Shown: in pieces, positions 9,050 through 64,000 of the stretch | Numbering within the stretch: the stretch's first letter is position 1 | Layout: the number at the start of each line of letters is the position of its first letter | Position numbers and translations under genes: made by a program | DNA from: Balanoglossus misakiensis | Lineage: Eukaryota > Animalia > Hemichordata | Assembly (NCBI GenBank): GCA_040954595.2 | Contig: CM082589.2 | Span: 1,029,909-1,093,908 of the forward strand | Reading direction: 5' to 3' | Length of the DNA stretch: 64,000 nucleotides | The notes under the pieces: model-generated | Seen by the model: the letters and a program-made list of their open reading frames with translations, nothing else | What the model was told of the DNA's origin: nothing | The model's database searches: none

Positions 9050-9485
9050 CTCACAGTACTCCAGAAAAAATGATGCAAATGTTATGCAGCAGCGTCAGCC
9101 TAACACCAACATAAATACAACCCCCTCATTATAATATTCACATTATCTAACTCGACTTTCCATTTCAAGCCAACCAATGGGATGCGGTCGCCATAACTAC
9201 ATAGACACACTCCCTAAGCTAGTAGCAAATGCTACACATTATCAACAACCTCCTAAGTTGATCTTCTCAAGTGCATTGTCACAGAATACTCCTTAATCGT
9301 AATGGCCGTAACCTTGGACTTCCCCAAAATCGAACTTGGGATTGAACTTAAACATGCACTAAGGTTAATTCAGCCATTATGCAAATCAAAGCACTGTACT
9401 GAACCCTCTCAAAACAGCTGAGGTGATATTAAAAAAGCTCCATCCAATTCAACGTAAATCACATGGGAAAGCCCGCAGGTACCAG

Positions 9486-29700: not shown

Positions 29701-32700
29701 GTCAGGTTTAGCTCAGTCTTGTCATTTCAGTGAGGGATTTGGTATCTTTCTGGAGATTGCCTTAACTCCTATCTTCAGTTGAAAACTGTGTGAATTTGTT
29801 GTCTACATTTGATTGGTTCTTAGATGAATCTGCGAAGTAAGGGTTAGATAAATTGCTATATTAGCAAAAGATGCAGTGATTATTACTGATAGTAATTTTC
29901 CTTATTATTTGAATTACTGGTACGCCTGAGATAATTTTGTATTATAGATTACAAGGATACTGCGACTGATTTTCAGTACTGGGTTAATTTTTCTGTGTGA
30001 TTAAAATGACATTACCTATGACCATTTATAAGATTGTTTTTTTCCATGTCAAAACATGTGGTGTTCCTCAAATGTGTTTTTAATAATTTCTATCTCTGGA
30101 GATTTTAGGGTCATGTTTGGCCCAAACTCGTTCTTAGACAAAATTTGACAAGTAGGACTGTCTGTCAGTTCTCTTCAAGCATTCAGGTGACCTGCGATTC
30201 TAATTGGCTTTCGTCAACATTTTAATTTCTTTCCAGATTGCTGTAAGTCGAAATCGCAGAACAGGTACGCTCTCTGTAGACGGGGGCGATGAAGAACGTG
30301 GCAAGGCACCAGATGGAGCATCAAACATGGATATTAAAATCCCGTTGTACGTTGGTGGTGTAGAAGAAACAATTCCTGTGCCAAGACTCGGAAAGGTAAG
30401 ATTTCATCTCCCATGATGCCTTGCAAACGATGTAACCTTGTTATTTCCTGCAATTTGAAACCATTCCTGGAAATCCAGTAAAAATTGAATTTACTCCTGG
30501 AAAATTGACCATCAAACGCTCATCAGACCTCCAAGCTGTTTTTTTACGGAGAAGCGATTGGAAAGTCACTTGGGAATAGTATCATCTCGGGTGTGTATAC
30601 TTCCCCTTGTGATTCTTTACACAGTTGGTTTGGTCAAAATAACTGCTACCACAACTCAACAGTCATAGAGATAAAAATAATGTGACACTATGTGATGAGA
30701 GGTTACTGGTGATGAATTCTGAAACTAAGGCCTGTCCGTCCGATCGTGGTTCTCATGGGTGACAATTAAGATGTGAGAATCTCAGTCTGATGGCCTATTA
30801 GACCGATAGTGGAACAGTGAAAAAAAGATAAAAGGTTTTGCTTTGAACTGGAACTCCCTGACCCTTTGTCTTCATTGCCGTTACCATGGAAATACATGTA
30901 GCCTCTGGATGAACAAGATTGAGAGGTTGATTTTCAGCCAATCAGGAGAATTATCTCTAATCATCAAATGATTGGAACAAGTTACCCACCATTTGTAAAA
31001 TGAACCACGGTGGCTCGGCAATTGTGAACAAAAGCTGTCCATCCAGTTTGATGAACAGAAATGAGTCAGTGACCAATAGCAGGAAAGATATACAAAACTG
31101 ATAAAATGATAAAGATATGTTGTGTTTTTATTCATTAATAATTTAAAAGTGATGGGGTATATGTACATCAATTTGTGGTATGATAGGATCCAATATGGCC
31201 ACCTGGTAACCATATTTTGTACCGGTAATGCTGAATGGTGTACTCACAACTACTATTTTCCCAGTGCAAGGCCCAGCAGCAAAAAATGCCTACGATCTGG
31301 AAAACTGTGATGATGTACTGAATCAAAAAATTTGCTGATCACACACACGTACATACCGTCATACGCATACATTTACATGATAACAACTTAATATTTGGCT
31401 CTGTCATCTCTGTGCCCATGAATTAGGCTGATTACTGCTGAAAATTGCTCATTTTAATTTACCACGGCGCTTGAATCAACACAGAGAGACATTAAAATTA
31501 ATTATATGAAGTTCACTCAGCTGCTTTAATCAGCAGATTAACCAAGATATTCATGTGTTGTAACTCAACGTTAATACAATTCAATCAAAGTGAATGGTCA
31601 TAAAAACAGGCAGACACTGCATAGGAGATGAAGCTGTGAGAACGGCCATCGTCATCTGTAATCTGATCACAGATTAAGATTGTGACTGAAATAATTAACA
31701 TCTTCAAGGGCAATTGCTCTACCTACTTAGTTTGCTTAGCTTCAATTCAAGCTTGGTTGACATCTGTTACTTTTTCTATCACTTGTCACGATAGAAACGC
31801 TTAAAATACTGAATCTGTGATTGTGGGTTCAGTTTTCCTAGGCTGTTCAATCGCTCATCTCAAAAAGAATTCTGTATAACATCTGATAATTAGTCCATCA
31901 GTTGGCTGAATTCTGAAAACCTCAGATTTTGTAAAGGTAACAAAATTGATGAAGATGTTTAAGCACTGTTTACCCTTTGGCCACCGAAGCAAGAGTTTTT
32001 ATTAGTCTTGCATTCACGCTTCTTCTCAGACATACCACAAATTTTATGTGCAAGTTTCCCCCAAGATATCTCCGTGAAGCACCTTCAATGAAATCTAATA
32101 TAGCCAGTACTTATACATACCTCAGATTTTATTTGCAAGTTGACTACAAGGTAACTCATTAAGAATCAGATTCTTTAACGAAATCCAATATAGGGAAAAT
32201 TTGAGAGATTTATCACAGTAAAAAATCGAATGTCCTAAACACATCCCTGGTTATCTCTTTGAGATAACTGAAGACAGATTGAAACCTACAGGGCATATAC
32301 TAATTACATCAAGCAGCTGATTTTGTTCCTTAAACTCCTCCAATCTTGCCTTCTGGGAACTATTAAATTTGATCGGACATTAATTTTCCACTGGTACAGG
32401 TATATACAGAGGGTTCCATGATGCTGTACTGATTTTGTCTAACACAAACAAAATAAATTGTTTTCCTTCAGGAAATTCACTATTGTTTTGTGATCTAATC
32501 CAGAGAGGCTGTTTTGTCTCAAGGCTCCTCAGCTACCTTAAAAACCAAAGCAGTTTGGAAAATTAAAGATTTGGATTTTAAGAAGTTGTCAATAAATTGC
32601 ACCAGTGGGATAAAAATGAGCTATGTAGATTTTTTTCATCAAGATAGTATTTAGAAGACCACTCCTGTATTTGTCTTTTCCATATGGTACCACATGGCAC

Positions 32701-35700
32701 AAATGGAAAACCTTCCGTGATACAAATAAAATTTGGGCTTCTGACGCTGTAACATACCTTATTGAGTTAAATGCTTTGTAATTTATGTCTCTTGTTTATA
32801 CAAAGCTCATCATAAAATAAAACCATATTGAGTAGGCCACATGTGGACAATATTTTTTTCTTAATACCCCGTACCCGTAACCTTGAACATTGTGATGAAC
32901 AATCAGGTGAAATCACAACCAATTAAACACGAAATGTTGCGGCAGATGAAAGTCTGTGTTTGCTTGATCATTAACTTGAACAAAAGTGATTGTTTGGATG
33001 AATGATAATTATAATCCTAACCATTGCGTTTGGGTTTGAGTATACCAACATATTGTCATTTGCATAACTGCTGGTAGACTAATTGAGTCATGTTTATTGT
33101 GATTTGAGAGAAAATTAGAAAATTGAAAACTCTGTAGTCAGAAAAGCGTGGGAGGAGGGCAATGATGTTTGGGTATTGACAATCAATAAAACTATTTTTT
33201 TTTCCTCTCTCAGGTGTCCAATAGTTTAGATAGCTGCATCAGAAAGTTTGAACTGAACGCTGAGATGTTAGACCTGCAATCGCCGTCCAGTTCCACAGAT
33301 GTAATGCCATGTTACACGACAGTAGAAAATGGAGCCTACTTCTCGGGTGATGGCTATGCTGTGCTTGGTATGTATTAATTATGAATATAAAAGGATTGGA
33401 TAGATCAAACAAGAATTAAGCTGTCAGAATAGGATTATAGGATTAAGCAGCAGTTTGTATGGATATTATTAGCTATTGTGAAATGAGCTTTGGGATTAAT
33501 AGTACATGGTACAGATGTGATTTCTAGAATATGGGAGTTATACACAATTTATGAAGATATTTACTAGGATTTATTGGAATTAAATACAAAAGTCTCTGGA
33601 GATTTTTTATCAGTGTATATACATTGTTTTGAGATGAGTGACAAGATTCAGATTAGCTTCTTGGAGATCATCAAGATAAGATAAAGAGGTGAATATCAAG
33701 ATTAAGAGCTAATTTTAGGAGATTATCATATCAGGGTAAGTATCAGGGATTTGTGATGATTATTGGGAATAAGGGGAGAGCCATTTGGTTTCTTGAGAGG
33801 GTGGAGTTTATAGGTATATTTTCATCCACTGTTTATACAGCATTTTTCCATTGCTAGTCCTACTTTTACTCAAGGCATTGCAGAAGACAAAAAATATCTC
33901 CTGCACCATCTGCCAGTTTTTTTCTCTCCAAACATCCTCCACCACCCCCTCCCTGAATTCAAATGGTTCTCCCCTAAGAAAACCCAGCTGAATATGAGTG
34001 ACGTCATGTTGTGAATGTCATGAGTCCAAACAAGTGATTAGAATATAATCAAAGGATTACACTAAAAACATTTTAAAATGATTATGAAGATTAAATCAAG
34101 ATTTCTGGCAATATTTTTATGATTTCAATTTGGCTTCAGGTAATTACCATTTTATATTCATTTTAATTCTTTGCTGGCATTTAAATGGGATAGATTAAAT
34201 GTTGTCTCTGACGTTTATTGTGCAGGAATGTATCTATAGCTGAAAGTGCCTTAAGGATATGGAAAACTTTTAACTGAAGAATCTGGATTTTTTGCTAACA
34301 GCTGATGTAAATGACGTCTTCAGTCAGACAATTTCACAAATTCCTTTTTTATAGTTTTATTCCAAATTCTCAACTTTGCTGTAAAAGTCATTAAGGGAAG
34401 CCTCCCTGAGGAGTTCTGGAAGCCGTAACTCCATTTGATAGTGAGAGCTGGTCGGGGATTGAAGCAGTGAGCTGTGAAATACTGTCTAAAACCGTTAACA
34501 GCAGCCAAGTATTCCCAAAGGAGTGCTAACAGAAAAATATCAAGGAAGTGTATTCTGTTAGACTATTGATCTCATCACCGTGTTTGTTACACAGTTCAAA
34601 TTAATACAAAACAGTTCAGCTATCACACAAACACAAGATGATACATCGATAGAATTATTGTCCCCATTATTTTCAGATGAAACATTCCGAGTTGGTACAG
34701 ATATGGTTATAGAGCTTGAATTCCGTACAACGCAGAACAACGGTGTTCTGATGACTGTAGCCAATGAAAGAAATGACTGCTTCGGATTGGAACTGGTTAA
34801 TGGAGAGGTAAGCATACTGCCCCCTAGCGTCCAATAATTGACATCGAGTGAGAGATTAGATATGTGTATGTCCATCATTATGAATTAGATATTAACTTCG
34901 CAATCAAACGGGAATAGTCTTATAATTATATTGTTTTCCTCAATTGGATTCAAAACGAAGGTTATAGTGTTTCAGTCCAGATGATTCTGTATGCATATTT
35001 GATAATGTTTTCCATATTGAATGGTCATCTTATATTTATTCCAATAATGAAATCTGGACAACACATGAATAGATCATCTTTTTATGATTAAGGTTAAATA
35101 TTTTGTTTCATTTGAGTGGCTACAGCAATTATTGTGATGAGAATTTAATTTTTTCGGGTCTAGCCTTTCTGAAATAGGCTTGATCTTTCCGTGATTTCCA
35201 GAAGACAAAGGCCAGGAGGGGTTAATTAATATACTGCCACAAATCAAAGTGATGTGCTGGCCTCGATTTTCGTAATGTTTATGTCCACAAAATTGGAAAT
35301 AATCTTGGCTCTCTCTCACTCACTGTGCATCTGTCTCTTTGAAAAAATTAGAACTCGCAATTCAACACAGAGATTGACTTTCTTGCTTATATTTTTTCTA
35401 GTTAACATTACGTGCTGACAACGGAGCTGGAAAGTTTGACGCGGTCTTCACAACAGAGTCTCCCTACTCTCTTTGCGATAACGAGTGGCATATAGTTCGA
35501 GCGAACAAAGTGAAAAATGCACTTGAACTTCAAGTAGATGGAGAGTATGTTGGTGGTGGCACAGACAAGATCAGTAGCTCAGCCGATACCAATAATCCTC
35601 TCTATATTGGTGGCTATCCAGGTATGTTTCCATATTCTTCTTAGACTCGTTAATATTGTCTCAATGTCTGTTGCAAGACATACCCATTCATCAACCTATC

Positions 35701-39013: not shown

Positions 39014-40842
<1,829 letters not shown>

Positions 40843-41219
40843 TTATTAAAACTGCAAAAGATAAGGAAACACAGCAAACTAATTATTTGAGAACATGAAT
40901 GTGAATAGTTTGATTAGATTGACATACAAAATCTGCATTCTCCATCAATGGAAGAAATTGACCCCCCCCCCCCCCCCCCCAATAAAACAGATTATCTCCA
41001 TTGAGTCGAGCCACAGTTCATGGCTTAATTTATTCAAAGCACACAGGTCAAAGCATCCTAATCAACTTATTTTCGGGTCAACTATATATTCTGCTTTCAG
41101 TTTCACTTTATACTCGGTTGATCGTGAGGATCGTAGTGTTAGTATGAAATGACATATGCATGAAACCTCGACCTGTCTGGGCCAATTTCAAATTTTGCTT
41201 TATGCTGTCATCGGTCACC

Positions 41220-41760
41220 TTACGATTAAAATGGAATCAAATACAATGGTATCATTGAACAACTTGCCTTTGCCTGGAAAAATAAAGGGAATTGGGAGCA
41301 AATACAGGCGAACACGCTTCTAAATATTGGTTCGTGGATCTTCCGTACGCGATTTCTTCTGATGCAATGGCGGTCACACATGTGGTCGACCTCTGACCCC
41401 AAGTCTGGGCATTTTCAGACTGTGCATTCCAACACCTCGCTGGGAAAATCGTTTTGAAGCATATATTTGAACTAGTTACTGCATTTGTGGATTGATATTT
41501 TGTTTATTTAGTTGAATTACTACATTTATTATTTTTTCACAGTTTATAAACGCTGAAATCATCATCTGTGTTTATATGATATGTGAATCTGAAGTTGATA
41601 ATGACGAAACGCTGACTATCAGGAAAAGTGTGGTGTGTGCACTTTATGATGTAGTTTACACGAAACCCGAAATATCAGCGCTTAAACTGAAGAATTAAGG
41701 ACCCATGCGAATAAGTTGATTACTTTTCTGGATACACTTTACTTCTTGTAACAGGTGCAA
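41220..41760. promoter_or_regulatory. Putative bidirectional promoter region shared by EIF2S1 and RAE1
   Basis: Divergent ATGs about 1.15 kb apart, each preceded by a splice acceptor. Local CpG enrichment, an ATTGG (CCAAT box) and an AATGGCGG (YY1-like) motif at about 41325-41375. Confidence 0.55.
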
Positions 41761-41978
41761 AACAGGTCTGTCTGATAAACTCTTAAAATCGAGCATAAAC
41801 ATATTTGACAACTGCCTGTTGTGTTGTTTTCCCTCGTGCTCATAACTCATTCATTGTAACTAATTTATGCAAAGCAATGTAACATAAGCATCTTTGCATC
41901 TCATATTTTGTTGTCTTGGAAGTCATGTAGATAAATAACCATCTCAACATTTCCACACCACCAGAGCTATCTAGAAGA

Positions 41979-44376
41979 ATGAGTCTTTATGGCACTGGTA
42001 CAAGTGGTTTTGGTACAACTGGATCAGTGTTTGGTCAGCAGGCAACAGACCACAATCCAATGAAAGACATAGAAGTGGCCTCACCACCTGATGACAGTGT
42101 CAGTTGCCTTGCCTTTAGTCCACCAGCCATAGCATCCACATTTCTCATTGCTGGATCGTGGGCAAACGATGTGAGTTTGTGTAAAATCATCATCCAAACT
42201 GTCTGTAGTGTGGTAATCGTAACTTGACACAATGTTGTCTGTCAATGTACATATGTTTGCATTATAGCTCGCTAAGGCTTGTACAAGCATTCTGTTTTAA
42301 TTTTGTTAAACCATCAAACTTTACTTGCAGGTAAGATGTTGGGAAATCCAAAACACGGGACAGACAGTCCCAAAAGCTCAACAAACTCACACAGGACCTG
42401 TTCTTGATGCATGTTGGCATGATGTAAGTATGTCAGTCATTTTTGATGCAATGTATTCGAAAACCACCGGAAAAACCTACATGTACATTGGGACATTAGA
42501 CACGGTCAGAAAATATGTGACTCATGTTTTTGCCAATTTTCTTTTCAGGATGGTACAAAAGTGTTCACAGCATCAAGTGATAAAACTGCAAAAATGTGGG
42601 ATTTGAATTCTAACCAAGCCATACAAATAGCTCAGGTACGTTTGTATAAATCTTTCAAGTGAAGAGTAAATTTCATGTAGACACTTTGTTGTAAAATGTA
42701 TAAATGTAGAAAGATATCTTAAATCTTTTTTTTCTCATTTGATTGAACACAGCACGATGCTCCGATTAAGTCAATACATTGGGTCAAATCACCAACCTAC
42801 AATTGTGTTGTGACTGGAAGCTGGGACAAGACTGTCAAGGTGAGAATTTTGGATTGTGACAAATTTAAAATGGACATTTTACTGATCATTCAGATCACTT
42901 GATACATTGCACAGTTTGTTGTTGAGTTACAATTCCCATCACTTTTCCGGTTGTTTTCCTATCTGTAGTTCTGGGATACTCGAACGCCAAACCCAATGCT
43001 GACATTACAGCTGCCAGAGAGATGCTACTGCATGGATGTGGTAAGTACAGTAGCTATATTTAATACATGTACCCTCAAGTATTGATTTTTCATGTGTAGA
43101 AACATTACTCTACCATCTATACATGTAATTGTACCTGCGGGGAAAATCCCTACCTTACATTCTTGTATTGTGTGTGTGTTGCAGATGTATCCAATGGCTG
43201 TAGTTGGCACAGCAGGAAGAGGCATCATCGTGTATCAGTTAGAAAATCAACCATCAGAGTTTAAACGCATCGATTCACCACTGAAATATCAGGTAAGCTC
43301 ATTTAACCATACGTTTAATCCTTACAGGCCTGAGTTCCTGATAACATACCCAAATTTAACCCTATATCTGGTGGTTTGCACAGTAATTATTACTAATAGG
43401 TAATTGTTTCTCTTCATGTGATTGTATTGTAGCACCGTTGTGTTGCAATATTCAGAGACAAGAAACAAGCACCAACTGGATTTGCACTTGGAAGCATAGA
43501 GGGCCGTGTTGCTATTCAGTTTGTACAAGCAACCAATCCGTAAGTAGTTTCCAATGTGCTTTGGGGAGTTGACCAATCACAGCAAGGGTTGTTTCCCTAT
43601 TATCTTCACTTTGAGTTTAAATTCAGGGTGTCTGAATTTGAAAGCTTTCAAGGCAAGTATTTGTTTACTCTTCATTGATTGTTAAAACTGATGCAGATTT
43701 TGTTTTCCTTTTTCAGGAAAGACAACTTTACATTCAAATGTCATCGCTCCAATGGGAGTACGAATGCAGTGCAGGATATATTTGCTGTAAGTTACTTTCC
43801 TGTTGAATAACCTCTTGCCATTTTGAACATGTTGCTGTGTCATGAGGGCAATAGCACCCATCTGTTACCTCAATGGACTGTTGAAGGTTCTCATTAAATT
43901 AGGCAATAGGAGTGAATGTGGACTGTGATTTGACGATTTCAGGTAAACGGGATCGCGTTTCATCCAGAACATGGCACATTGTCAACATGTGGCTCGGACG
44001 GAAGATTCAGCTTCTGGGACAAAGATGCCAGAACGAAACTGAAGACATCAGAAGCATTGGATCAATCCATTACATGTTGTACCTTCAATGCCCAGGGCAA
44101 TATATTTGCATATGCCTCAAGCTATGATTGGTCAAAGGTGGGTATGCAGATTACATGCAAATCAATAGTAAAATTTGCATACACAGACCTTTTTAATCTC
44201 ACTGTGTGTTCTTTACATATTTTGAATTACAATAAGAGCACAGCCAGTAATGCTGTTGACTGACCTCCATTTTTTATTCATTTCAGGGACACGAGTATTT
44301 CAATCCTCAGAAGAAAAATTACATCTTCTTAAGAGGCAATGCTAATGAAGAACTCAAACCAAGAAGCAGAAAATAA
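41979..44376 (+). CDS. RAE1: mRNA export factor RAE1 (WD40)
   Basis: Exons 41979-42170, 42331-42423, 42549-42635, 42753-42839, 42969-43040, 43185-43292, 43433-43539, 43717-43786, 43943-44137, 44287-44376. Motifs [89 protein letters not shown]. Confidence 0.97.
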
Positions 44377-45112
44377 CTTCACTCTGTCAATCATTGCAAC
44401 CAGAATGTACAGCGATTTTCTTTCTTGCATCGAGGAAAGATTGAATATTTTCATAAATGATCGCAATAAATAGCTTTTGAACCATCAGATATTGACAGGT
44501 CATATTTTTGAACCTTCATTGACATCTGATATCATGTACCACAACCCATCGTGTGTTACTTAGTCGGATCCATTATGATTATAGAGCTCTGTGTTCATAT
44601 TGGCGCTTCATCCAGTACAAACTGCAGGTGATACAATGTAGTTAAAAAGATAAAATAATGAAATGCCAGTGGAGATCTTCACCAGTATTTGATTACGAGC
44701 AGCATGCTACCATTTTGTAAAAACAAAATACAGTCAGAACATTAATTTTTCTAATATCAGTTTTAATACTGTATTGCATTGGAATTATACTACAGTGTCA
44801 CATACAGTGTTCAAATGAAATATCCTTTTCTCAATGGAGTGAAACAATTCTTCCTGTTCACAGTTTCTCCAAATACATTAAACTGAAAGAAATAAGCAGC
44901 TGCTGGTCTCTGAGAAAAATGACAAAACTTTTCCACATCTTAACATTTACTATTTGCCATTCTTTGCAAAATATTCTTTATGTTTCTTCGTATATTACTT
45001 CAAGGAAGTTGTGTGTGGTTAAACAACATGAATAAAGTATTTGGAACACAAAGAAATGTTTTGTGATTATGTGAAAGAGTTAAAGTCATGTAATAATGTG
45101 TAAATGACTGTA

Positions 45113-45772
45113 TCACAGGTTTGGACAAAATGTTTGAATTCCATCTTCCCTTTTGTTGTAAACAACAATAAATCCTCTCGATTTATGACTGACAGTATCC
45201 TCAGTATTCATAGCACGATATAAGTCTTTTGTAGTAGTCCAAGTTTCCTGCGTGTCGGCCCACACATCCATCAACAACAACCTGTCAGTTTCTTGATGAT
45301 ACGCTGCTACTGGGCTTATATGTCCACCCAAATATTCATCTTGCCCCAGGACACGCATGTGATAGTTCACTATCAAAGTACATCTACAGTCAGTGCTGCT
45401 TAGTGTTTCTATGGCAACTTGCTGAAATTGCTCACAGCTGCTGTCGGAAGCATAGTACACCTTCACATCATACTGAAATGCTCGATATAAGTCTGCCATT
45501 TCTTGCAAAGTACAGCCTTTTGCTGCTACAGCTTCCCTGTTTAATACGGACACGGTTTGTGGTAGATCAAACATTGTCTCTTCTTTGTATGGTACATTCT
45601 GGTTGTTGCCAGGTTGCTGCATGGCAGACATTGTAATGGTTGCAGTTCTGATTGCACAAAATGTACGATGTGTTTGTTTGGCAAAGTTTTCAATGATTGC
45701 ATTTTGTTTGTAGGTTGCTGTGAGTAGCAACTTCTGCCCAGCTGAGCTTTCCAAGTCAATTAATCCTGACAT
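45113..45772 (-). CDS. Phytochelatin synthase family protein (papain-like glutathione gamma-glutamylcysteinyltransferase fold), catalytic domain only, about 219 aa, intronless CDS
   Basis: Motifs QTHRTFC (oxyanion Gln and nucleophile Cys six residues apart), GCTLQEM, LIVNYH..LGQ, GGHISPVAAYH, LLLMDV (His and Asp 18 residues apart), LYRAM and SRGF. The true start is probably MSGLID at 45772, because a splice acceptor (tttttttcacag, AG at 45793-45792) lies inside the longer ORF call. A candidate donor at 46071 would define a non-coding exon 1. Confidence 0.88.
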   Translation of the reverse strand: MSGLIDLESSAGQKLLLTATYKQNAIIENFAKQTHRTFCAIRTATITMSAMQQPGNNQNVPYKEETMFDLPQTVSVLNREAVAAKGCTLQEMADLYRAFQYDVKVYYASDSSCEQFQQVAIETLSSTDCRCTLIVNYHMRVLGQDEYLGGHISPVAAYHQETDRLLLMDVWADTQETWTTTKDLYRAMNTEDTVSHKSRGFIVVYNKREDGIQTFCPNL

Positions 45773-46071
45773 CAGTGGTGTGCTTATTAACCTGTGAAAA
45801 AAATCCAAAAAGTTGTTAGTCATGTTTTACTTTGTGTTACATCTGTATTAAATGTGAATGGTGTACATTTCAGCAATCTCTAACATAGCAGCATGCATTG
45901 CAGGGCTGTGTGTTAGCTTTGACCAGCTGCTGGAGGCACGTCTACATTAGTTTGTGATCAGATAAACTCCCTGTAACATTAAATCAATGTAGCCTACCTA
46001 TTATTATAAATATTAAATGTTTTATAGTCGGAAGTCTTCTGTCTATTTCAACCTTGTCTATTTCCTAATAC

Positions 46072-46244
46072 CTGGTAAAGGATCCATCGCATGATGGCGC
46101 TGTATTAATGGCTTCCCCCAATGGGCGATCTCCGTTCGATTATCACCAGTTTGATTTTCTTTCAACGTCATTGATTGGTTAAAAATTTGTAGCGTTCCCG
46201 CCATCATTTGGGTCCGCCATTGTCGCGTATCGGTAGAGGGAATC
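46072..46244. promoter_or_regulatory. Very compact bidirectional promoter shared by the PCS-like gene and DEK
   Basis: About 170 bp separate the PCS exon-1 donor and the DEK ATG. The segment is CpG-rich, with oppositely oriented CCAAT (about 46118) and ATTGG (about 46173) boxes and YY1-like ATGGCG/CGCCAT motifs. Confidence 0.6.
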
Positions 46245-49200
46245 ATGTCAGACACCGAGAAAAACGACGTAAAGGAAGAAACTGAGGTACCGTAACCATA
46301 ATATTGAACTAACCCTTGTCACACATGTATAGTTGGAATATGCTGTATTGACTTTGTGGTAATCGCACGGCTCTTTCTCTGCTGAACGGGACCCAAAATA
46401 CTTGTAAAACTAAATGGCTTCCCGGTAGTTTTGACACATTGTACATATCATGTGTGTATATTTACCCCCACTTGCACGCTCACTCCCTTTGTGCCGGAAG
46501 CCATTTGACACAATCGTGGTGATGGAGTTAATTAATACCCCTTTCCAGGTTCTTTCCCTTGCAGATTCTGTAGCTAGTTATGCGACATATCCAGTAGGCT
46601 TCAAAATTTCCTACACGACTTGTGCGTTACGCGTCCAACCGTTTATCAAAACATGACCTGAAGGGGGGGGGGGGGGGGGGGGGGGTACGTAGACAACGCA
46701 TTGTCAACTGCAAGTAGGTCGGTCTGTTGCGGTACTGAGTCAATTGTGAAGTGTGCTTCCGGGTACAGTGTTACAGTTCTTGCCAGTTGAAAATTGCCAC
46801 AACAAATATAAGCTGCTGTAGTCATGATATGCTTGCTGCAGTACTAGATCTCAAGATTTTTATCGTTTTGTTTCTTTTTTTAATCAAGGAACCAAAAGAG
46901 GAAGTTGAAGAAAGTAAAAAGTCCAGTCCCAAGAAGGTGACCAAGTCACCGCAGAAGAAAGATGTAGACAAAAAAGATGAAGAGGCTGAGGAGGATGAAG
47001 AAGAAGATGATGGTGAAGATGATGAAATCGAGGATGAAAGGCCTCACGGTAAGAAGAAAGTTATTGTAGATGCATCAAGGGTTAATGTAGTCTAGAATCC
47101 AGACTAATGTGTGTGGAGCATAGCGAAAAAAACACATCTGGATTCTAAAGTACAATTCTATCAACGATTTTTTTCTTCAAATTTTCAGTAGGTCTTCTTG
47201 ATAAACCAGTGGAAGTCATGAAAGGAACCAGAGACAGGAAGAAAGTCGAGAGATTATCACTCCAAGATACGAAATCCCTTTCAAATAAAGAAAAATTTGA
47301 AGTCAAAGAAGGCCGTGGAACAAAACTCGGTGAAATCGAGAGAGGTAAAGACACTTGGAGTGTGTTGATGTGAAAGTGAATATTTATGGCTTGTAGATAT
47401 ACAACACCAAATTTATCCTGCGGTCTCATTCATTTTTTGTTTTTATTTACAGTTGAGTTACAACTTAAGAAAGCTCATTCAGATGCCTTAAAACCTCTCC
47501 ATCGTCTTCTCTTTAGCCGGCCTGGATCGGTAAGAATTTTCCCTTTTTCCAAAGATGTAGAATAACTGTGTATGCATTAAGGGAAAAATGGCTGCCAGCC
47601 ATACAATTCTTTTGCGAAAATTTATTTTTACATTCTCTCTTTTCACTATAGAATTAATCTCCGTCCTTTTACAGGCTTTTGAAATAAAAAGAAACATTCG
47701 CAAATTTTCTGGATTTCCGTTTTCCAGAGATGAAGCAGAATATGAGAAGAAAGAGAACATTTTAATCAAGTGAGTAATTTGATCTCAATCATCAATTGAT
47801 CACATCAGTTGAAACATCACGATTAAATGGTCTGATTGATAGTTTTGTATTTCCAGTATATTTAGTGTAGTCCAGTTTAGCAGTTAATAACCATTAACCT
47901 TATGCTGTTGTTTCTGCAGATACACTGTGTCTGGATTGAAGGAGTTTTGTGAATGGCTAGACCTTGAAAAGGGCGGAGGAAAAGAAGATGTTATTCACAG
48001 AATACTGGATTTTCTTTTAGAACCCAAACCATCAGGGAAACCTTTGCCAAAACCAAAAAGTAAGTCAAACCTCCAGGGATTTCAAAATTACACCATTTTC
48101 AGCCCACTCCAAATTGATTTGAGATGCCTACTGTTCAGCTTATCAACACATTTTGTATATGTACAGATTGGTACAATATTTGCTAACATCTTTCTTTCTT
48201 TAGAAAAAAGAGGAGAAAAGAGAAAACGGACCCCAAAAGCCAAGAAAGATAAAAAGAAGAAAACAGAGAAGAAAGAAAAGAAGAGTAAAACCAAAAAGAT
48301 AGATTATGAGATTTTGAGCAGCGAGAGTGAGGAAGACAACAACAGTGATGAGGAGGAAGAAGAAGAGGTAGGCTTTGCTCATCATTGTTACCATGGAAAT
48401 AGGAATATGTACAGACTCCACATGTGTTCATTTGCATAATACACCAATCAACACCTATAAAGGGGGAAAATAACGTTTGTATTGAATCTCTCTTACAGGA
48501 AGTGCCGAAGAAGAAAAGACAAAAGATTGACAAATCACCAAAGAAATCACCCAAGAAAACTCCACAGAAAACACCCAAAAAGAAAGACAAATCCAGTACT
48601 CCCAAGAAAGAGAAAAAGCAGAAAAAAGAAACACCAAAGAAAGAGAAGAAAAGAAAAGGTGAGGGCAGCATTGCTGTTTCCATGGATATAATAGCCAGAA
48701 GCTACATTTTGTCTACATATTAGATTGTGAAAAGACATTGCATTTTCCTTCGATTTGAAACTTAAATGTCATTTTCTTTTTCCTATTTAGTTTCAGTAAG
48801 TTCAGATAGTTCAGATGATGAACCGCTTGTGAAAAGGGTCAAATCCCCACCAACAGTAAGTATCAAACTAAGTCGTCATCATCTGTATTGTGTAGAAGCT
48901 TTCAATTCCTTGCAGTGTGTTCAAGTTTTTTGAAAACAAAATATGTAGGATGTTCAACATCTTGCTTCCACTACTTTTCAGGATGGAGAAATCCGTGATG
49001 TTATCCAGAAAATTTTAGACGGTGCCAACTTGGAGGAAATCACCATGAAAACAGTGTGTAAACAAGTGTATGCAAAATATCCTGACTTTGACCTGAGTGA
49101 AAGAAAAGATTTCATCAAATCCACCGTCAGACAGGTAGGAATTTGCATTTTTTCTTAGTGTTCGGTACATTTGACACCCAAATAAAATTGAGACTTTGGT

Positions 49201-55999: not shown

Positions 56000-56039
56000 A
56001 GCATTTTGTGAAAAAGTGTACTATTTTCCGTCTCTTATT

Positions 56040-59000
56040 TTGAAAATTCGCAAAGTCGAAAAATCGTCGATTTTGGAAGATTTTCATGAGCTATAACCCA
56101 TGATTTTCTTCAAAAAATGACCAAATTTGAAAATTCGCAAAGTCGAAAAATCGTCGATTTTTCAACATTTTCCTGAGCTATAACCCATGGTTTTTTCAAA
56201 AAATGACCAAATTTCGAAAATTCGCAAAGTCGAAAAATCGTCGAGTTTTCAACATTTTCCTGAGCTATAACCCATGGTTTTTTCAAAAAATGACCAAATT
56301 TCGAAAATTCGCAAAGTCGAAAAATCGTCGATTTTTCACCATTTTCCTGAGCTATAACCCATGGTTTTTTCAAAAAATGACCAATTTCGAAAATTCGCAA
56401 AGTCGAAAAATCGTCGATTTTTCACCATTTTCCTGAGCTATAACCCATGGTTTTTTCAAAAAATGACCAAATTTCGAAAATTCGCAAAGTCGAAAAATCG
56501 TCGATTTTTCACCACTTTCCTGAGCTATAACCCATGTTTTTTTCAAAAAATGACCAAATTTCGAAAATTCGCAAAGTCGAAAAATCGTCGATTTTTCACC
56601 ATTTTCCTGAGCTATAACCCATGGTTTTTTCAAAAAATGACCAAATTTCGAAAATTCGCAAAGTCGAAAAATCGTCGATTTTTCAACATTTTCCTGAGCT
56701 ATAACCCATGGTTTTTTTCAAAAAATGACCAAATTTCGAAAATTCGCAAAGTCGAAAAATCGTCGATTTTTCACCATTTTCCTGAGCTATAACCCATGGT
56801 TTTTTCAAAAAATGACCAAATTTCGAAAATTCGCACGCAAAGTCGAAAAATCGTCGATTTTTCAACATTTTCCTGAGCTATAACCCATGGTTTTTTTCAA
56901 AAAATGACCAAATTTCGAAAATTCGCAAAGTCGAAAAATCGTCGATTTTTCAACATTTTCCTGAGCTATAACCCATGGTTTTTTTTCAAAAAATGACCAA
57001 ATTTCGAAAATTCGCAAAGTCGAAAAATCGTCGATTTTTCACCATTTTCCTGAGCTATAACCCATGGTTTTTTCAAAAAATGACCAAATTTCGAAAATTC
57101 GCAAAGTCGAAAAATCGTCGATTTTTCACCATTTTCCTGAGCTATAACCCATGGTTTTTTCAAAAAATGACCAAATTTCGAAAATTCGCAAAGTCGAAAA
57201 ATCGTCGATTTTTCACCATTTTCCTGAGCTATAACCCATGGTTTTTTCAAAAAATGACCAAATTTCGAAAATTCGCAAAGACGAAAAATCGTCCATTTTT
57301 CAACATTTTCCTGAGCTATAACCCATGGTTTTTTTCAAAAAATGACCAAATTTCGAAAATTCGCAAAGTCGAAAAATCGTCCATTTTTCAACATTTTCCT
57401 GAGCTATAACCCATGGTTTTTTTCAAAAAATGACCAAATTTCGAAAATTCGCAAAGTCGAAAAATCGTCCATTTTTCAACATTTTCCTGAGCTATAACCC
57501 ATGGTTTTTTCAAAAAATGACCAAATTTCGAAAATTCGCAAAGTCGAAAAATCGTCCATTTTTCAACATTTTCCTGAGCCATAACCCATGGTTTTTTCAA
57601 AAAATGACCAAATTTCGAAAATTCGCAAAGTCGAAAAATCGTCGATTTTTCACCATTTTCCTGAGCTATAACCCATGGTTTTTTCAAAAAATGACCAAAT
57701 TTCGAAAATTCGCAAAGTCGAAAAATCGACGATTTTTCAACATTTTCCTGAGCTATAACCCATGGTTTTTTTCAAAAAATGACCAAATTTCGAAAATTCG
57801 CAAAGTCGAAAAATCGTCGATTTTTCACCATTTTCCTGAGCTATAACCCATGGTTTTTTCAAAAAATGACCAAATTTCGAAAATTCGCAAAGTCGAAAAA
57901 TCGTCGATTTTTCACCATTTTCCTGAGCTATAACCCATGGTTTTTTCAAAAAATGACCAAATTTCGAAAATTCGCAAAGTCGAAAAATCGTCGATTTTTC
58001 AACATTTTCCTGAGCTATAACCCATGGTTTTTTCAAAAAATGACCAAATTTCGAAAATTCGCAAAGTCGAAAAATCGTCGATTTTTCACCATTTTCCTGA
58101 GCTATAACCCATGGTTTTTTCAAAAAATGACCAAATTTCGAAAATTCGCAAAGTCGAAAAATCGTCGATTTTTCACCATTTTCCTGAGCTATAACCCATG
58201 GTTTTTTCAAAAAATGACCAAATTTCGAAAATTCGCAAAGTCGAAAAATCGTCGATTTTTCACCATTTTCCTGAGCTATAACCCATGGTTTTTTCAAAAA
58301 ATGACCAAATTTCGAAAATTCGCAAAGTCGAAAAATCGTCGATTTTTCACCATTTTCCTGAGCTATAACCCATGGTTTTTTCAAAAAATGACCAAATTTC
58401 GAAAATTCGCAAAGTCGAAAAATCGTCGATTTTTCACCATTTTCCTGAGCTATAACCCATGGTTTTTTCAAAAAATGACCAAATTTCGAAAATTCGCAAA
58501 GTCGAAAAATCGTCCATTTTTCACCATTTTCCTGAGCTATAACCCATGGTTTTTTTCAAAAAATGACCAAATTTCGAAAATTCGCAAAGTCGAAAAATCG
58601 TCCATTTTTCAACATTTTCCTGAGCTATAACCCATGGTTTTTTCAAAAAATGACCAAATTTCGAAAATTCGCAAAGTCGAAAAATCGTCCATTTCTTCAA
58701 CATTTTCCTGAGCCATAACCCATGGTTTTTTCAAAAAATGACCAAATTTCGAAAATTCGCAAAGTCGAAAAATCGTCCATTTTTCAACATTTTCCTGAGC
58801 TATAACCCATGGTTTTTTCAAAAAATGACCAAATTTCGAAAATTCGCAAAGTCGAAAAATCGACGATTTTTCAACATTTTCCTGAGCTATAACCCATGGT
58901 TTTTTTCAAAAAATGACCAAATTTCGAAAATTCGCAAAGTCGAAAAATCGTCGATTTTTCACCATTTTCCTGAGCTATAACCCATGGTTTTTTCAAAAAA

Positions 59001-62000
59001 TGACCAAATTTCGAAAATTCGCAAAGTCGAAAAATCGTCGATTTTTCACCATTTTCCTGAGCTATAACCCATGGTTTTTTCAAAAAATGACTAAATTTCG
59101 AAAATTCGCAAAGTCGAAAAATCGTCGATTTTTCAACATTTTCCTGAGCTATAACCCATGGTTTTTTCAAAAAATGACCAAATTTCGAAAATTCGCAAAG
59201 TCGAAAAATCGTCGATTTTTCACCATTTTCCTGAGCTATAACCCATGGTTTTTTCAAAAAATGACCAAATTTCGAAAATTCGCAAAGTCGAAAAATCGTC
59301 GATTTTTCACCATTTTCCTGAGCTATAACCCATGGTTTTTTCAAAAAATGACCAAATTTCGAAAATTCGCAAAGTCGAAAAATCGTCGATTTTTCACCAT
59401 TTTCCTGAGCTATAACCCATGGTTTTTTCAAAAAATGACCAAATTTCGAAAATTCGCAAAGTCGAAAAATCGTCGATTTTTCACCATTTTCCTGAGCTAT
59501 AACCCATGGTTTTTTCAAAAAATGACCAAATTTCGAAAATTCGCAAAGTCGAAAAATCGTCGATTTTTCACCATTTTCCTGAGCTATAACCCATGGTTTT
59601 TTCAAAAAATGACCAAATTTCGAAAATTCGCAAAGTCGAAAAATCGTCCATTTTTCACCATTTTCCTGAGCTATAACCCATGGTTTTTTTCAAAAAATGA
59701 CCAAATTTCGAAAATTCGCAAAGTCGAAAAATCGTCGATTTTTCACCATTTTCCTGAGCTATAACCCATGGTTTTTTCAAAAAATGACCAAATTTCGAAA
59801 ATTCGCAAAGTCGAAAAATCGTCGATTTTTCAACATTTTCCTGAGCTATAACCCATGGTTTTTTCAAAAAATGACCAAATTTCGAAAATTCGCAAAGTCG
59901 AAAAATCGTCGATTTTTCACCATTTTCCTGAGCTATAACCCATGGTTTTTTCAAAAATTGACCAAATTTCGAAAATTCGCAAAGTCGAAAAATCGTCGAT
60001 TTTTCAACATTTTCCTGAGCTATAACCCATGGTTTTTTCAAAAAATGACCAAATTTCGAAAATTCGCAAATTCGAAAAATCGTCGATTTTTCACCATTTT
60101 CCTGAGCTATAACCCATGGTTTTTTCAAAAAATGACCAAATTTCGAAAATTCGCAAAGTCGAAAAATCGTCCATTTTTCAACATTTTCCTGAGCTATAAC
60201 CCATGGTTTTTTTCAAAAAATGACCAAATTTCGAAAATTCGCAAAGTCGAAAAATCGTCGATTTTTCACCATTTTCCTGAGCTATAACCCATGGTTTTTT
60301 CAAAAAATGACCAAATTTCGAAAATTCGCAAAGTCGAAAAATCGTCGATTTTTCACCATTTTCCTGAGCTATAACCCATGGTTTTTTCAAAAAATGACCA
60401 AATTTCGAAAATTCGCAAAGTCGAAAAATCGTCGATTTTTCAACATTTTCCTGAGCTATAACCCATGGTTTTTTCAAAAAATGACCAAATTTCGAAAATT
60501 CGCAAAGTCGAAAAATCGTCGATTTTTCAACATTTTCCTGAGCTATAACCCATGGTTTTTTCAAAAAATGACCAAATTTCGAAAATTCGCAAAGTCGAAA
60601 AATCGTCGATTTTTCACCATTTTCCTGAGCTATAACCCATGGTTTTTTCAAAAAATGACCAAATTTCGAAAATTCGCAAAGTCGAAAAATCGTCGATTTT
60701 TCACCATTTTCCTGAGCTATAACCCATGGTTTTTTCAAAAAATGACCAAATTTCGAAAATTCGCAAAGTCGAAAAATCGTCGATTTTTCACCATTTTCCT
60801 GAGCTATAACCCATGGTTTTTTCAAAAAATGACCAAATTTCGAAAATTCGCAAAGTCGAAAAATCGTCGATTTTTCACCATTTTCCTGAGCTATAACCCA
60901 TGTTTTTTTTCAAAAAATGACCAAATTTCGAAAATTCGCAAAGTCGAAAAATCGTCCATTTTTCACCATTTTCCTGAGCTATAACCCATGGTTTTTTTCA
61001 AAAAATGACCAAATTTCGAAAATTCGCAAAGTCGAAAAATCGTCCATTTTTCAACATTTTCCTGAGCTATAACCCATGGTTTTTTTCAAAAAATGACCAA
61101 ATTTCGAAAATTCGCAAAGTCGAAAAATCGTCAATTTTTCAACATTTTCCTGAGCTATAACCCATGGTTTTTTTCAAAAAATGACCAAATTTCGAAAATT
61201 CGCAAAGTCGAAAAATCGTCCATTTTTCAACATTTTCCTGAGCTATAACCCATGGTTTTTTCAAAAAATGACCAAATTTCGAAAATTCGCAAAGTCGAAA
61301 AATCGTCGATTTTTCACCATTTTCCTGAGCTATAACCCATGGTTTTTTTCAAAAAATGACCAAATTTCGAAAATTCGCAAAGTCGAAAAATCGTCGATTT
61401 TTCACCATTTTCCTGAGCTATAACCCATGGTTTTTTCAAAAAATGACCAAATTTCGAAAATTCGCAAAGTCGAAAAATCGTCGATTTTTCAACATTTTCC
61501 TGAGCTATAACCCATGGTTTTTTCAAAAAATGACCAAATTTCGAAAATTCGCAAAGTCGAAAAATCGTCGATTTTTCACCATTTTCCTGAGCTATAACCC
61601 ATGGTTTTTCAAAAAATGACCAAATTTCGAAAATTCGCAAAGTCGAAAAATCGTCGATTTTTCACCATTTTCTGAGCTATAACCCATGGTTTTTTCAAAA
61701 AATGACCAAATTTCGAAAATTCGCAAAGTCGAAAAATCGTCCATTTTTCACCATTTTTCCTGAGCTATAACCCATGGTTTTTTTTCAAAAATGACCAAAT
61801 TTCGAAAATTCGCAAAGTCGAAAAATCGTCCATTTTTCAACATTTTCCTGAGCTATAACCCATGGTTTTTTTCAAAAAATGACCAAATTTCGAAAATTCG
61901 CAAAGTCGAAAAATCGTCCATTTTTCAACATTTTCCTGAGCTATAACCCATGGTTTTTTTTCAAAAAATGACCAAATTTCGAAATTCGCAAAGTCGAAAA

Positions 62001-64000
62001 ATCGTCCATTTTTCAACATTTTCCTGAGCTATAACCCATGGTTTTTTCAAAAAATGACCAAATTTCGAAAATTCGCAAAGTCGAAAAATCGTCGATTTTT
62101 CACCATTTTCCTGAGCTATAACCCATGGTTTTTTTCAAAAAATGACCAAAATTTCGAAAATTCGCAAAGTCGAAAATCGTCGATTTTTCACCATTTTCCT
62201 GAGCTATAACCCATGGTTTTTTCAAAAAATGACCAAATTTCGAAAATTCGCAAAGTCGAAAAATCGTCGATTTTTCAACATTTTCCTGAGCTATAACCCA
62301 TGGTTTTTTCAAAAATGACCAAATTTCGAAAATTCGCAAAGTCGAAAAATCGTCGATTTTTCACCATTTTCCTGAGCTATAACCCATGGTTTTTTCAAAA
62401 ATTGACCAATTTCGAAAATTCGCAAAGTCGAAAAATCGTCGATTTTTCAACATTTTCCTGAGCTATAACCCATGGTTTTTTCAAAAAATGACCAAATTTC
62501 GAAAATTCGCAAATTCGAAAAATCGTCGATTTTTCACCATTTTCCTGAGCTATAACCCATGGTTTTTTCAAAAAATGACCAAATTTCGAAAATTCGCAAA
62601 GTCGAAAAATCGTCCATTTTTCAACATTTTCCTGAGCTATAACCCATGGTTTTTTTTCAAAAAATGACCAAATTTCGAAAATTCGCAAAGTCGAAAAATC
62701 GTCGATTTTTCACCATTTTCCTGAGCTATAACCCATGGTTTTTTTCAAAAAATGACCAAATTTCGAAAATTCGCAAAGTCGAAAATCGTCCATTTTTCAA
62801 CATTTTCCTGAGCTATAACCCATGGTTTTTTTCAAAAAATGACCAAATTTCGAAAATTCGCAAAGTCGAAAAATCGTCCATTTTTCAACATTTTCCTGAG
62901 CTATAACCCATGGTTTTTTTCAAAAAATGACCAAATTTCGAAAATTCGCAAAGTCGAAAAATCGTCCATTTTTCAACATTTTCCTGAGCTATAACCCATG
63001 GTTTTTCAAAAAATGACCAAATTTCGAAAATTCGCAAAGTCGAAAAATCGTCGATTTTTCACCATTTTCCTGAGCTATAACCCATGGTTTTTTCAAAAAA
63101 TGACCAAATTTCGAAAATTCGCAAAGTCGAAAAATCGTCGATTTTTCACCATTTTCCTGAGCTATAACCCATGGTTTTTTCAAAAAATGACCAAATTTCG
63201 AAAATTCGCAAAGTCGAAAAATCGTCGATTTTTCAACATTTTCCTGAGCTATAACCCATGGTTTTTTCAAAAAATGACCAAATTTCGAAAATTCGCAAAG
63301 TCGAAAAATCGTCGATTTTTCACCATTTTCCTGAGCTATAACCCATGGTTTTTTCAAAAAATGACCCAAATTTCGAAATTCGCAAAGTCGAAAAATCGTC
63401 GATTTTTCAACATTTTCCTGAGCTATAACCCATGGTTTTTTCAAAAAATGACCAAATTTCGAAAATTCGCAAATTCGAAAAATCGTCGATTTTCACCATT
63501 TTCCTGAGCTATAACCCATGGTTTTTCAAAAATGACCAAATTTCGAAAATTCGCAAAGTCGAAAAATCGTCGATTTTTCAACATTTTCCTGAGCTATAAC
63601 CCATGGTTTTTTTCAAAAAATGACCAAATTTCGAAAATTCGCAAAGTCGAAAAATCGTCCATTTTTCAACATTTTCCTGAGCTATAACCCATGGTTTTTT
63701 CAAAAAATGACCAAATTTCGAAAATTCGCAAAGTCGAAAAATCGTCGATTTTTCACCATTTTCCTGAGCTATAACCCATGGTTTTTTCAAAAAATGACCA
63801 AATTTCGAAAATTCGCAAAGTCGAAAAATCGTCGATTTTTCAACATTTTCCTGAGCTTTAACCCATGGTTTTTTTCAAAAAATGACCAAATTTCGAAAAT
63901 CGCAAAGTCGAAAATCGTCGATTTTTCACATTTTCCTGAGCTATAACCCATGGTTTTTTCAAAAAATGACCAAATTTCGAAATTCGCAAAGTCGAAAAAT
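56040..64000. repeat. 87-bp satellite DNA array, about 90 copies, continuing beyond the window
   Basis: Consensus AAAATTCGCAAAGTCGAAAAATCGTCGATTTTTCA(C/A)CATTTTCCTGAGCTATAACCCATGGTTTTTTCAAAAAATGACCAAATTTCG. The period is confirmed by the 29-aa repeat in the ORF track. The first unit is diverged and the rest are near-identical. Confidence 0.98.

What the first reader, a model, noticed from the sequence alone, without database searches (positions are those of the whole stretch)
45113..45772. Catalytic-domain-only, intronless phytochelatin-synthase homologue in an animal housekeeping cluster
Seen: a protein of about 219 aa with intact PCS triad spacing (Q-x5-C; H-x17-D), no long C-terminal extension, no obvious signal peptide and no coding introns, whereas the four flanking housekeeping genes have 7-11 coding exons. 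Established: plant, fission-yeast and nematode PCS enzymes carry an extra C-terminal region, while short single-domain forms are typical of bacteria (such as the Nostoc enzyme), which mainly hydrolyse glutathione. PCS is patchily distributed in animals and absent from vertebrates. Inference: this could be a horizontally acquired or retroposed gene, and possibly a little-described animal branch of thiol-peptide or metal-detoxification chemistry.
Basis: partly seen in the sequence, partly recalled or inferred. Interest (0 to 1): 0.78.

Follow-up and report, generated by a model that had tools for sequence, protein, structure and literature searches.

The report
Third phytochelatin-synthase branch in animals
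This intact 219-residue gene belongs to an old group of short phytochelatin-synthase look-alikes shared by acorn worms, echinoderms, an annelid and several single-celled eukaryotes; the group lacks residues that plant enzymes need to build metal-binding peptides, so it likely cuts a small thiol peptide instead, and databases may be mislabelling it.

Summary
A single ORF (45772-45113, minus strand, 219 aa) matches Pfam Phytochelatin (E 1.3e-39), keeps Gln33/Cys39/His151/Asp169, folds like Nostoc Alr0975 (Z 32), and has no C-terminal domain, signal peptide or coding intron. A 5'-UTR intron is likely. The transfer and retrocopy ideas are not supported. The nearest relatives are equally short acorn-worm proteins (Saccoglossus, Glandiceps; 53-56%). 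They sit in a eukaryotic clade ('DxW') with echinoderm, annelid, choanoflagellate, amoebozoan and dinoflagellate members. AU tests reject grouping with full-length animal PCS or with bacterial short PCS. A scan of 185,579 prokaryote genomes found no member of the clade. The new point is biochemical. Arg152 and the Lys185-Tyr186 loop of Arabidopsis PCS1, needed for phytochelatin synthesis, are kept in 80/80 canonical enzymes and in most bacterial-type ones. The clade replaces them with Met and an Asp-x-Trp loop. The enzyme is therefore likely a cytosolic cysteine hydrolase that does not polymerise phytochelatins; glutathione or its conjugates is the likeliest substrate, but this is untested. 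Expression is untested. Verdict: new variant of a known kind; interest 0.45.

The parts
45113..45772 (-). Coding sequence, 219 aa, single exon; short PCS-fold cysteine enzyme of the 'DxW' clade
45656..45658 (-). Catalytic Cys39; oxyanion Gln33 at 45674-45676; clade-typical Lys32 at 45677-45679 (Thr in most other PCS)
   Evidence: invariant in A1; column counts
45356..45358 (-). Met139, at the position of AtPCS1 Arg152 / Nostoc Arg173
   Evidence: alignment to Alr0975; M in 41 of 57 clade rows, R in 80 of 80 canonical rows
45260..45322 (-). His151 ... Asp169-Val-Trp171: catalytic His/Asp and the clade's Asp-x-Trp loop, which replaces D-V-A/S-R-Y/F-K-Y
45792..45811 (-). Likely 3' splice site of a 5'-UTR intron; first exon base 45791, 19 nt before the ATG; donor not resolved (candidates 45997 and 46071)
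   Evidence: score 10.4, matched by 1 of 1085 background AG sites; matrix trained on only 9 Rae1 sites
46050..46300 (.). CpG-rich stretch, likely a bidirectional promoter shared with the DEK-like gene (ATG 46246, + strand)
   Evidence: CpG o/e 1.28 against 0.26-0.39 in the gene body and upstream; function inferred
44762..44767 (-). Candidate polyadenylation signal ATTAAA, about 350 nt after the stop; 3' ends face those of Rae1
   Evidence: motif match only
41979..44378 (+). Neighbour: Rae1-like WD40 gene, 10 coding exons, 367 aa (name recalled from sequence)

Best explanation
The gene encodes a short papain-fold enzyme with an intact catalytic triad, likely inherited vertically within an old eukaryotic subfamily, that likely works in the cytosol as a hydrolase of glutathione or glutathione S-conjugates and likely does not build phytochelatins. 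Shown: triad, fold, lack of signal-like N-terminus, clade membership, and the swaps Arg152->Met, Thr49->Lys and D-V-A-R-F/Y-K-Y -> D-x-W-P-x-T (AtPCS1 numbering). Inferred mechanism: Cys39 attacks the Cys-Gly bond, helped by Gln33, His151 and Asp169, to form a gamma-Glu-Cys thioester. The pocket that positions the acceptor glutathione has lost both positive charges and gained a Trp and a Met, so water would resolve the intermediate. The Trp two residues after the catalytic Asp matches the N-S-W motif of papain (recalled, not tested). The lineage part is firm (about 0.85), 'not a phytochelatin polymerase' about 0.75, and the glutathione substrate about 0.55 given that.
For: Fold and triad. Residues shared by all three PCS groups include G12, F30, Q33, C39, G86, T88, Q144, G150, H151, S153, P154, Y158, L166, D169, W178, D192, R199 and G200, so the core is kept. 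Acceptor site: at the R152 position the clade has M 41, L 6, R 4 of 57 rows, against R in 80 of 80 canonical and 112 of 116 bacterial-type rows. A K/R-aromatic pair after the catalytic Asp occurs in 1 of 53 clade rows against 80 of 80 and 97 of 115. Trp at Asp+2 occurs in 45 of 53 against 0 of 80 and 0 of 115. In AtPCS1, R152A and K185A retain 0.02% of phytochelatin synthesis (PMC3855540, Table 1). The Nostoc enzyme mainly deglycylates glutathione, and the catalytic domain alone of Schistosoma PCS cleaves GS-bimane about 9-fold faster than the long form (PMC3561135). A hydrophobic N-terminus occurs in 2 of 55 clade rows against 80 of 107 bacterial-type rows. Lineage. GC3 0.39 against 0.37 in Rae1 and CpG o/e 0.39 against 0.36 fit long residence.
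Against: No member of the clade has an assay in the papers I could read. PMC3855540 measured synthesis only and warns that the same mutations may disturb the first site, so hydrolysis of glutathione may be lost too. The loop before the catalytic Cys is variable in the clade (Tyr55 position: F 16, T 8, N 6, H 5, S 4 of 57), which could mean another substrate. The Nostoc enzyme is already mostly a hydrolase while keeping Arg173/Lys206, so these losses are not required for hydrolysis and hint at a further change. I could not inspect model coordinates or dock glutathione. With the diagnostic columns removed, support for the clade falls to 67/92.
Confidence: 0.45

Rival explanations
1. Same old eukaryotic lineage, but the enzyme has left glutathione and hydrolyses or transfers another small amide, ester or peptide whose leaving group is uncharged or hydrophobic and fits the Met/Trp-lined pocket.
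For: Both basic residues are lost across the clade and replaced by conserved Met139 and Trp171; Lys32 and Glu64 are conserved clade-specific gains. The mutants may affect the first site. Paralogues and fusions exist (two Saccoglossus copies on one contig; P0030 has a phosphatase-like N-terminal domain, read by eye).
Against: The core residues shared by all PCS groups are kept. Structural match to Alr0975 (Z 32) is twice that to any other fold relative (Z 15.9).
Confidence: 0.3
2. It is a working, C-terminally truncated phytochelatin synthase in which Lys32/His138 stand in for Arg152/Lys185.
For: Triad intact; truncated AtPCS1 and SmPCS still make phytochelatins; Lys32 is present in 74% of clade rows; databases name relatives glutathione gamma-glutamylcysteinyltransferase.
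Against: Even R152K and K185R nearly abolish synthesis in AtPCS1 (0.01% and 0.56%), and bulky Trp substitutions in this loop cut it to 4%. The database names follow from the Pfam domain.
Confidence: 0.13
3. Lineage-specific horizontal transfer from a bacterium into this animal or into acorn worms.
For: Short, single-exon form; ESM Atlas neighbours are mostly bacterial clusters. A tree with acorn-worm genes outside the rest of the clade is not rejected (p 0.057). With motif columns dropped, the clade groups with short bacterial proteins against canonical PCS (95/81).
Against: AU p 0.0009 and 0.002 against two bacterial placements. Named relatives are all eukaryotic. Of 22 genome loci matching the clade motif, 20 are PCS-like and none falls inside the clade; the motif catches 42 of 52 Asp-x-Trp proteins. 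Composition matches the host.
Confidence: 0.05
4. Retrocopy of an ordinary full-length PCS that lost its C-terminal domain.
For: No coding introns between intron-rich neighbours.
Against: AU p 3.2e-10 against grouping with the bivalve 492-aa PCS and a similar unnamed one. It lacks every canonical motif (E-P, W-R-W, R-x-K-Y). No poly(A) tract in the 400 nt downstream and no convincing flanking direct repeats. An old intron loss or retroposition inside the DxW family itself remains possible.
Confidence: 0.02

Closest known systems
Nostoc sp. PCC 7120 Alr0975 / NsPCS (PDB 2btw, 2bu3, 6tho), 'half' PCS
   Same: Single catalytic domain, about 35% identity, Z 32, rmsd 1.5 A; Gln/Cys/His/Asp in register; mainly a glutathione hydrolase.
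   Different: NsPCS keeps Arg173, Lys206 and Tyr207; this protein has Met and an Asp-x-Trp loop one residue shorter. Most bacterial-type rows have a hydrophobic N-terminus; this clade does not. Separate clade.
Canonical eukaryotic PCS (AtPCS1, CePCS1, SmPCS, bivalve PCS such as Sinanodonta 492 aa; EC 2.3.2.15)
   Same: PF05023 domain and catalytic triad.
   Different: No C-terminal domain, no E-P or W-R-W motifs, no Arg152/Arg183/Lys185/Tyr186; grouping rejected.
Saccoglossus kowalevskii XP_002730372.1 (206 aa) and LOC100369208 (236 aa); Glandiceps talaboti LOC144445235 (211 aa); Strongylocentrotus XP_790643 (221 aa)
   Same: Same length, start, motifs and clade; 53-56% identity for the acorn-worm proteins. 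These are the likely orthologues.
   Different: Only automatic names; no function in the papers searched. PMC3838358 cites Saccoglossus XM_002730326 as a PCS hit; that this is the transcript of XP_002730372.1 is my inference from the accession numbers.
Algal and cyanobacterial PCS groups 1 ('N') and 2 ('E/D') of PMC11314372
   Same: Short forms occur in eukaryotes; groups are not prokaryote versus eukaryote.
   Different: The window protein has His, and the clade mostly Gly, at the diagnostic position. The parts I read (abstract, section 2 part 1, section 2.4) describe no Asp-x-Trp group, and the study covers cyanobacteria and algae only.

Membership tests
Pfam PF05023 Phytochelatin synthase domain | Score above gathering cut-off over the full model | tested here: met
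   136 bits against 24.9; profile 4-210 of 210
PCS / papain-like fold | Cys-His-Asp triad plus oxyanion Gln in register, PCS fold | tested here: met
   Q33, C39, H151, D169; Z 32 to 2bu3
Canonical phytochelatin synthase (EC 2.3.2.15) | Second-substrate residues Arg152, Lys185, Tyr186 | tested here: not met
   Met139 and D-V-W-A-D-T-Q; requirement from PMC3855540
Canonical phytochelatin synthase (EC 2.3.2.15) | Variable C-terminal domain | tested here: not met
   Stop about 14 residues after the last strand; relatives likewise. No search for longer fused forms of this clade was run.
Canonical phytochelatin synthase (EC 2.3.2.15) | Groups with full-length eukaryotic PCS | tested here: not met
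   AU p 3.2e-10; only one named animal full-length sequence was available
Canonical phytochelatin synthase (EC 2.3.2.15) | Makes (gamma-Glu-Cys)n-Gly from glutathione | not testable with these tools
   needs an assay
Nostoc-type bacterial half PCS | Catalytic domain only | tested here: met
   219 aa
Nostoc-type bacterial half PCS | Arg173 and D-V-S/A-R-Y-K-Y loop; nests among bacterial sequences | tested here: not met
Nostoc-type bacterial half PCS | Removes Gly from glutathione and conjugates | not testable with these tools
   needs an assay
Short eukaryotic 'DxW' clade (working name, defined here) | One clade with N-Y-H-M, Asp-x-Trp, no hydrophobic N-terminus | tested here: met
   96/93 and 95; 92 in the mixture quick tree; 67/92 without the motif columns
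Processed retrogene | Intron-bearing parent in the same genome, poly(A) remnant, target-site repeats | tested here: inconclusive
   no genome held; no poly(A) or clear repeats, but old retrogenes lose these

The most novel reading that the evidence does not exclude
Eukaryotes carry a third, so far unrecognised class of PCS-fold enzymes, from amoebae and choanoflagellates to acorn worms, sea urchins and annelids. Its rebuilt Met/Trp pocket acts on a substrate other than glutathione or makes a new thiol-peptide product. Some published records of 'phytochelatin synthase' in hemichordates and echinoderms would then be this class, not the metal-detox enzyme.
Probability: 0.3. Interest if true: 0.68.

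Novelty: new variant of a known kind. Interest (0 to 1): 0.45.

Why it matters
Whether animals use phytochelatins is often argued from BLAST hits (PMC3838358 lists phyla this way, including a Saccoglossus record). If the short DxW proteins cannot make phytochelatins, the map of PCS in animals needs redrawing, and the automatic name glutathione gamma-glutamylcysteinyltransferase is wrong for a whole clade. The clade is also a natural experiment on the debated second-substrate pocket. It is small, cysteine-catalysed and probably soluble, so one expression-and-LC-MS experiment would settle its chemistry. It is not a new system and not a striking transfer event.

Tried and rejected
No whole genome is held, so I could not look for a separate full-length PCS, paralogues or a parent gene. 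No RNA holder was listed; this is no evidence on expression. Neither start variant is in the protein collection by exact sequence. The search for related loci with the single protein in genome contigs gave 27 pattern matches and no relative; with alignment A1 it could not build patterns. The clade motif had 0 matches in viral contigs. I used P0045 as a query hoping it was an animal full-length PCS; it proved to be from tea plant, and the search gave mostly fungi and only one named animal. So whether acorn worms or echinoderms also have canonical PCS is untested. The careful mixture-model tree of 71 rows did not finish in two runs; I report its quick version and an LG+G4 tree of 45 rows that I chose from those 71. 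The AU test that merely moves the acorn-worm genes outside the other DxW rows was not rejected (p 0.057). The first candidate UTR donor (46071) scored poorly (1.2; 24% of background sites score as high). An acceptor-like site before the ATG in relatives was significant (control fraction 0.05 or less) in only 4 of 17 single-ORF loci, some of which may be transcripts. ESM Atlas gave only PF05023 clusters and no structure search. Earlier scan findings: none by sequence or by the five-word query; the 8 shown of 29 for 'phytochelatin synthase' were all archaeal MscS fusions, unrelated. Three papers were not held: Bundy and Kille 2014, and two Alr0975 structure papers. The hemichordate genome paper (PMC4729200) has no 'phytochelatin' in its main text or in the 2 supplementary files held. 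No complex prediction was run; glutathione is not an offered ligand.

Full report
Observation. The minus-strand ORF ends at 45113 and is 236 aa from ATG 45823 or 219 aa from ATG 45772. It matches Pfam Phytochelatin at E 1.3e-39 over profile 4-210 of 210. It matches Nostoc Alr0975 at E 3.1e-34 with no intron-sized gap. An AlphaFold model from a 37-sequence alignment has pLDDT 93.4. Its best structural match is Alr0975 (Foldseek E 2.4e-23; Z 32.0, rmsd 1.5 A, 196 residues), and the next fold relatives score Z 15.9 or less. Gln33, Cys39, His151 and Asp169 are invariant in that alignment. There is no C-terminal domain and no hydrophobic N-terminus.

Gene structure and surroundings. The order is eIF2-alpha (-), Rae1-like (+), this gene (-), DEK-like (+), RNF144-like (+), then an 87-bp satellite (the last three gene names are recalled from sequence). 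Rae1 has 10 coding exons and eIF2-alpha 7 coding pieces. A strong acceptor lies 19 nt before ATG 45772: score 10.4, reached by 1 of 1085 background AG sites, with a matrix from only 9 Rae1 sites. A CpG-rich stretch at 46050-46300 (o/e 1.28) lies between this gene and the DEK-like ATG. I infer a spliced 5' UTR from a shared bidirectional promoter; the donor is unresolved. GC3 (0.39 against 0.37) and CpG depletion (0.39 against 0.36) match Rae1. An intronless GPCR ORF at 7907-9094 shows that single-exon genes are not unique in this window. No RNA run was listed, so expression is untested.

Relatives. Against 1.84 billion representatives, 1776 proteins scored E 0.001 or better and the best 150 were listed. 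The top hit (E 3e-66, 56%) is Saccoglossus XP_002730372.1, 206 aa. A profile search added a second Saccoglossus copy and Glandiceps LOC144445235 (55%, 53%). Of 20 further look-ups, named ones were Saccoglossus, the crinoid Antedon, the brittle star Amphiura, the sea urchin Strongylocentrotus (XP_790643, with 7 Logan members in its cluster besides NCBI and EukProt records), the annelid Dimorphilus, the amoeba Gocevia and the choanoflagellate Didymoeca; the rest carried no species name. Symbiodinium 'PCS3' also belongs. The host is therefore probably an acorn worm; this rests on this one protein.

Phylogeny. A FastTree of 197 of 211 collected rows (14 fragments left out) put the window protein with the three acorn-worm proteins (99) inside a 57-row clade (95) with no named prokaryote. 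An LG+G4 tree of 45 chosen rows gave acorn worms 99/97, a 13-row group with echinoderms 95/97, the whole clade 96/93, and canonical long PCS 99/99. The quick mixture-model tree of 71 rows gave 99, 92 for the clade, and 100 (the careful run did not finish). Dropping the diagnostic motif columns kept the clade but at 67/92, and joined it to short bacterial proteins against canonical PCS at 95/81. AU tests: with animal full-length PCS, p 3.2e-10; with 11 Nostoc-type rows, p 0.0009; with the nearest bacterial Asp-x-Trp group, p 0.002; acorn-worm genes merely outside the other clade members, p 0.057, not rejected. Only one named animal full-length PCS (Sinanodonta, 492 aa) was available.

Search for a bacterial donor. 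A degenerate pattern for the His...Asp-x-Trp segment matches the window once, with 0 hits in 100 shuffles, and catches 42 of 52 Asp-x-Trp proteins in hand. In 185,579 prokaryote genomes it found 22 loci. Twenty are PCS-like, from Dongia-, Neisseriaceae- and Chlamydiae-labelled records, and none falls inside the clade. The Neisseriaceae/Chlamydiae-like group is a weak sister (84/47). Viral contigs gave 0. Metagenomes gave 101 loci, 60 of them passing my score and motif filter. Of these 17 hold the domain in one ORF, 17 in two or more pieces, and 26 are partial. In the split loci I inspected, most break near profile position 95 at GT...AG-like borders. So the family has both intron-bearing and single-exon members. 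The pattern cannot see genes with an intron inside the motif. Four longer loci that I read look eukaryotic (low-complexity ORFs, a mariner-like transposase; read by eye).

Active site. Using melon PCS to anchor AtPCS1 numbering: Arg152 is kept in 80 of 80 canonical and 112 of 116 bacterial-type rows, but is Met in 41, Leu in 6 and Arg in 4 of 57 clade rows. The K/R-aromatic pair after the catalytic Asp is in 80 of 80, 97 of 115 and 1 of 53. Trp at Asp+2 is in 0, 0 and 45 of 53. The canonical set is mostly fungal, and most 'bacterial-type' rows are unnamed and labelled by motif and tree position. Clade-specific gains are Lys32 (74%), Glu64 (91%), His138-Met139, Trp171 and Thr174. In PMC3855540 (parts 1-4 of 5 read) R152A and K185A keep 0.02% of synthesis, R152K 0.01% and K185R 0.56%, and F184W/Y186W 4%. 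The authors warn that the first site may also be affected.

How it likely works. Shown: an intact triad in a PCS fold, no signal-like N-terminus, and a rebuilt second pocket. Inferred: acylation of Cys39 by gamma-Glu-Cys from glutathione or a conjugate, then hydrolysis, because the acceptor cannot be positioned. Nostoc PCS is mainly such a hydrolase, and the isolated Schistosoma catalytic domain cleaves GS-bimane efficiently (PMC3561135 passages). The main rival is a different substrate altogether. True phytochelatin synthesis is unlikely but untested.

What is in print. Ten library searches returned no listing that describes this clade. PMC3838358 (passages) cites a Saccoglossus record as a PCS hit and has two Strongylocentrotus sequences in its tree, accessions not seen. 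PMC11314372 (abstract, section 2 part 1, section 2.4) splits algal and cyanobacterial PCS into two groups. PMC4655397, PMC6981842, PMC4410428, PMC7411734, PMC7216689, PMC12065762 and PMC4729200 were read as passages and add nothing on it. Key subscription papers were not held, notably Bundy and Kille 2014, which may already show a short animal group. Supplements of these papers, other than PMC4729200's, were not searched.

Verdict. A real, ordinary-looking resident gene, not a recent transfer or a retrocopy of full-length PCS. It marks an apparently undescribed subfamily whose chemistry probably differs from its database name. New variant of a known kind; interest 0.45.

Noticed in passing
window 56037-64000: 87-bp satellite, 91 copies, 97% matches, running off the window end; genes stop about 1 kb before it.
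   Followed up: no
window 40830-41979 and 45772-46246: Two head-to-head gene pairs (eIF2-alpha/Rae1-like and PCS-like/DEK-like), each with a CpG-rich stretch between them (o/e 0.91 and 1.28); Rae1-like and the PCS-like gene are tail to tail, about 730 nt apart, and their 3' UTRs may overlap.
   Followed up: partly
window 45512-45514 and 45386-45388 (Cys87, Cys129): Extra cysteines shared by the four acorn-worm-type proteins; Cys87 sits in the G-x-T-L motif where Nostoc has Met, next to the invariant Gly86. Could be a redox- or metal-sensitive site.
   Followed up: no
P0167 (Saccoglossus LOC100369208), residues 1-27: Basic, acid-free N-terminal extension that looks like a mitochondrial presequence (by eye); its paralogue lacks it.
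   Followed up: no
P0030 (406 aa, unnamed): DxW domain fused behind a dual-specificity-phosphatase-like domain (read by eye).
   Followed up: no
L001-L022: Two or three bacterial PCS-like groups (Dongia-type; Neisseriaceae/Chlamydiae-labelled) also have Asp-x-Trp and lack the Arg152 equivalent, on long branches outside the eukaryotic clade.
   Followed up: partly
L023, L026, L034, L037, L041, L056, L058, L061, L064, L076, L086, L088; L055: A set of near-related gene-poor contigs carries the gene with one intron near profile position 95; L055 has a second near 151 and a possible GC donor.
   Followed up: partly
window 7907-9094 (-): Single-ORF rhodopsin-family GPCR (7tm_1, E 5.7e-72).
   Followed up: no
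window about 23700-35650 (+): Multi-exon gene with several laminin G domains.
   Followed up: no
window 15411-16083; 13324-13403; 13859-13940; 46663-46686; 40962-40981: 30-bp minisatellite (19 copies), two short 32-bp repeats starting with G runs, and long G or C homopolymer runs in introns.
   Followed up: no
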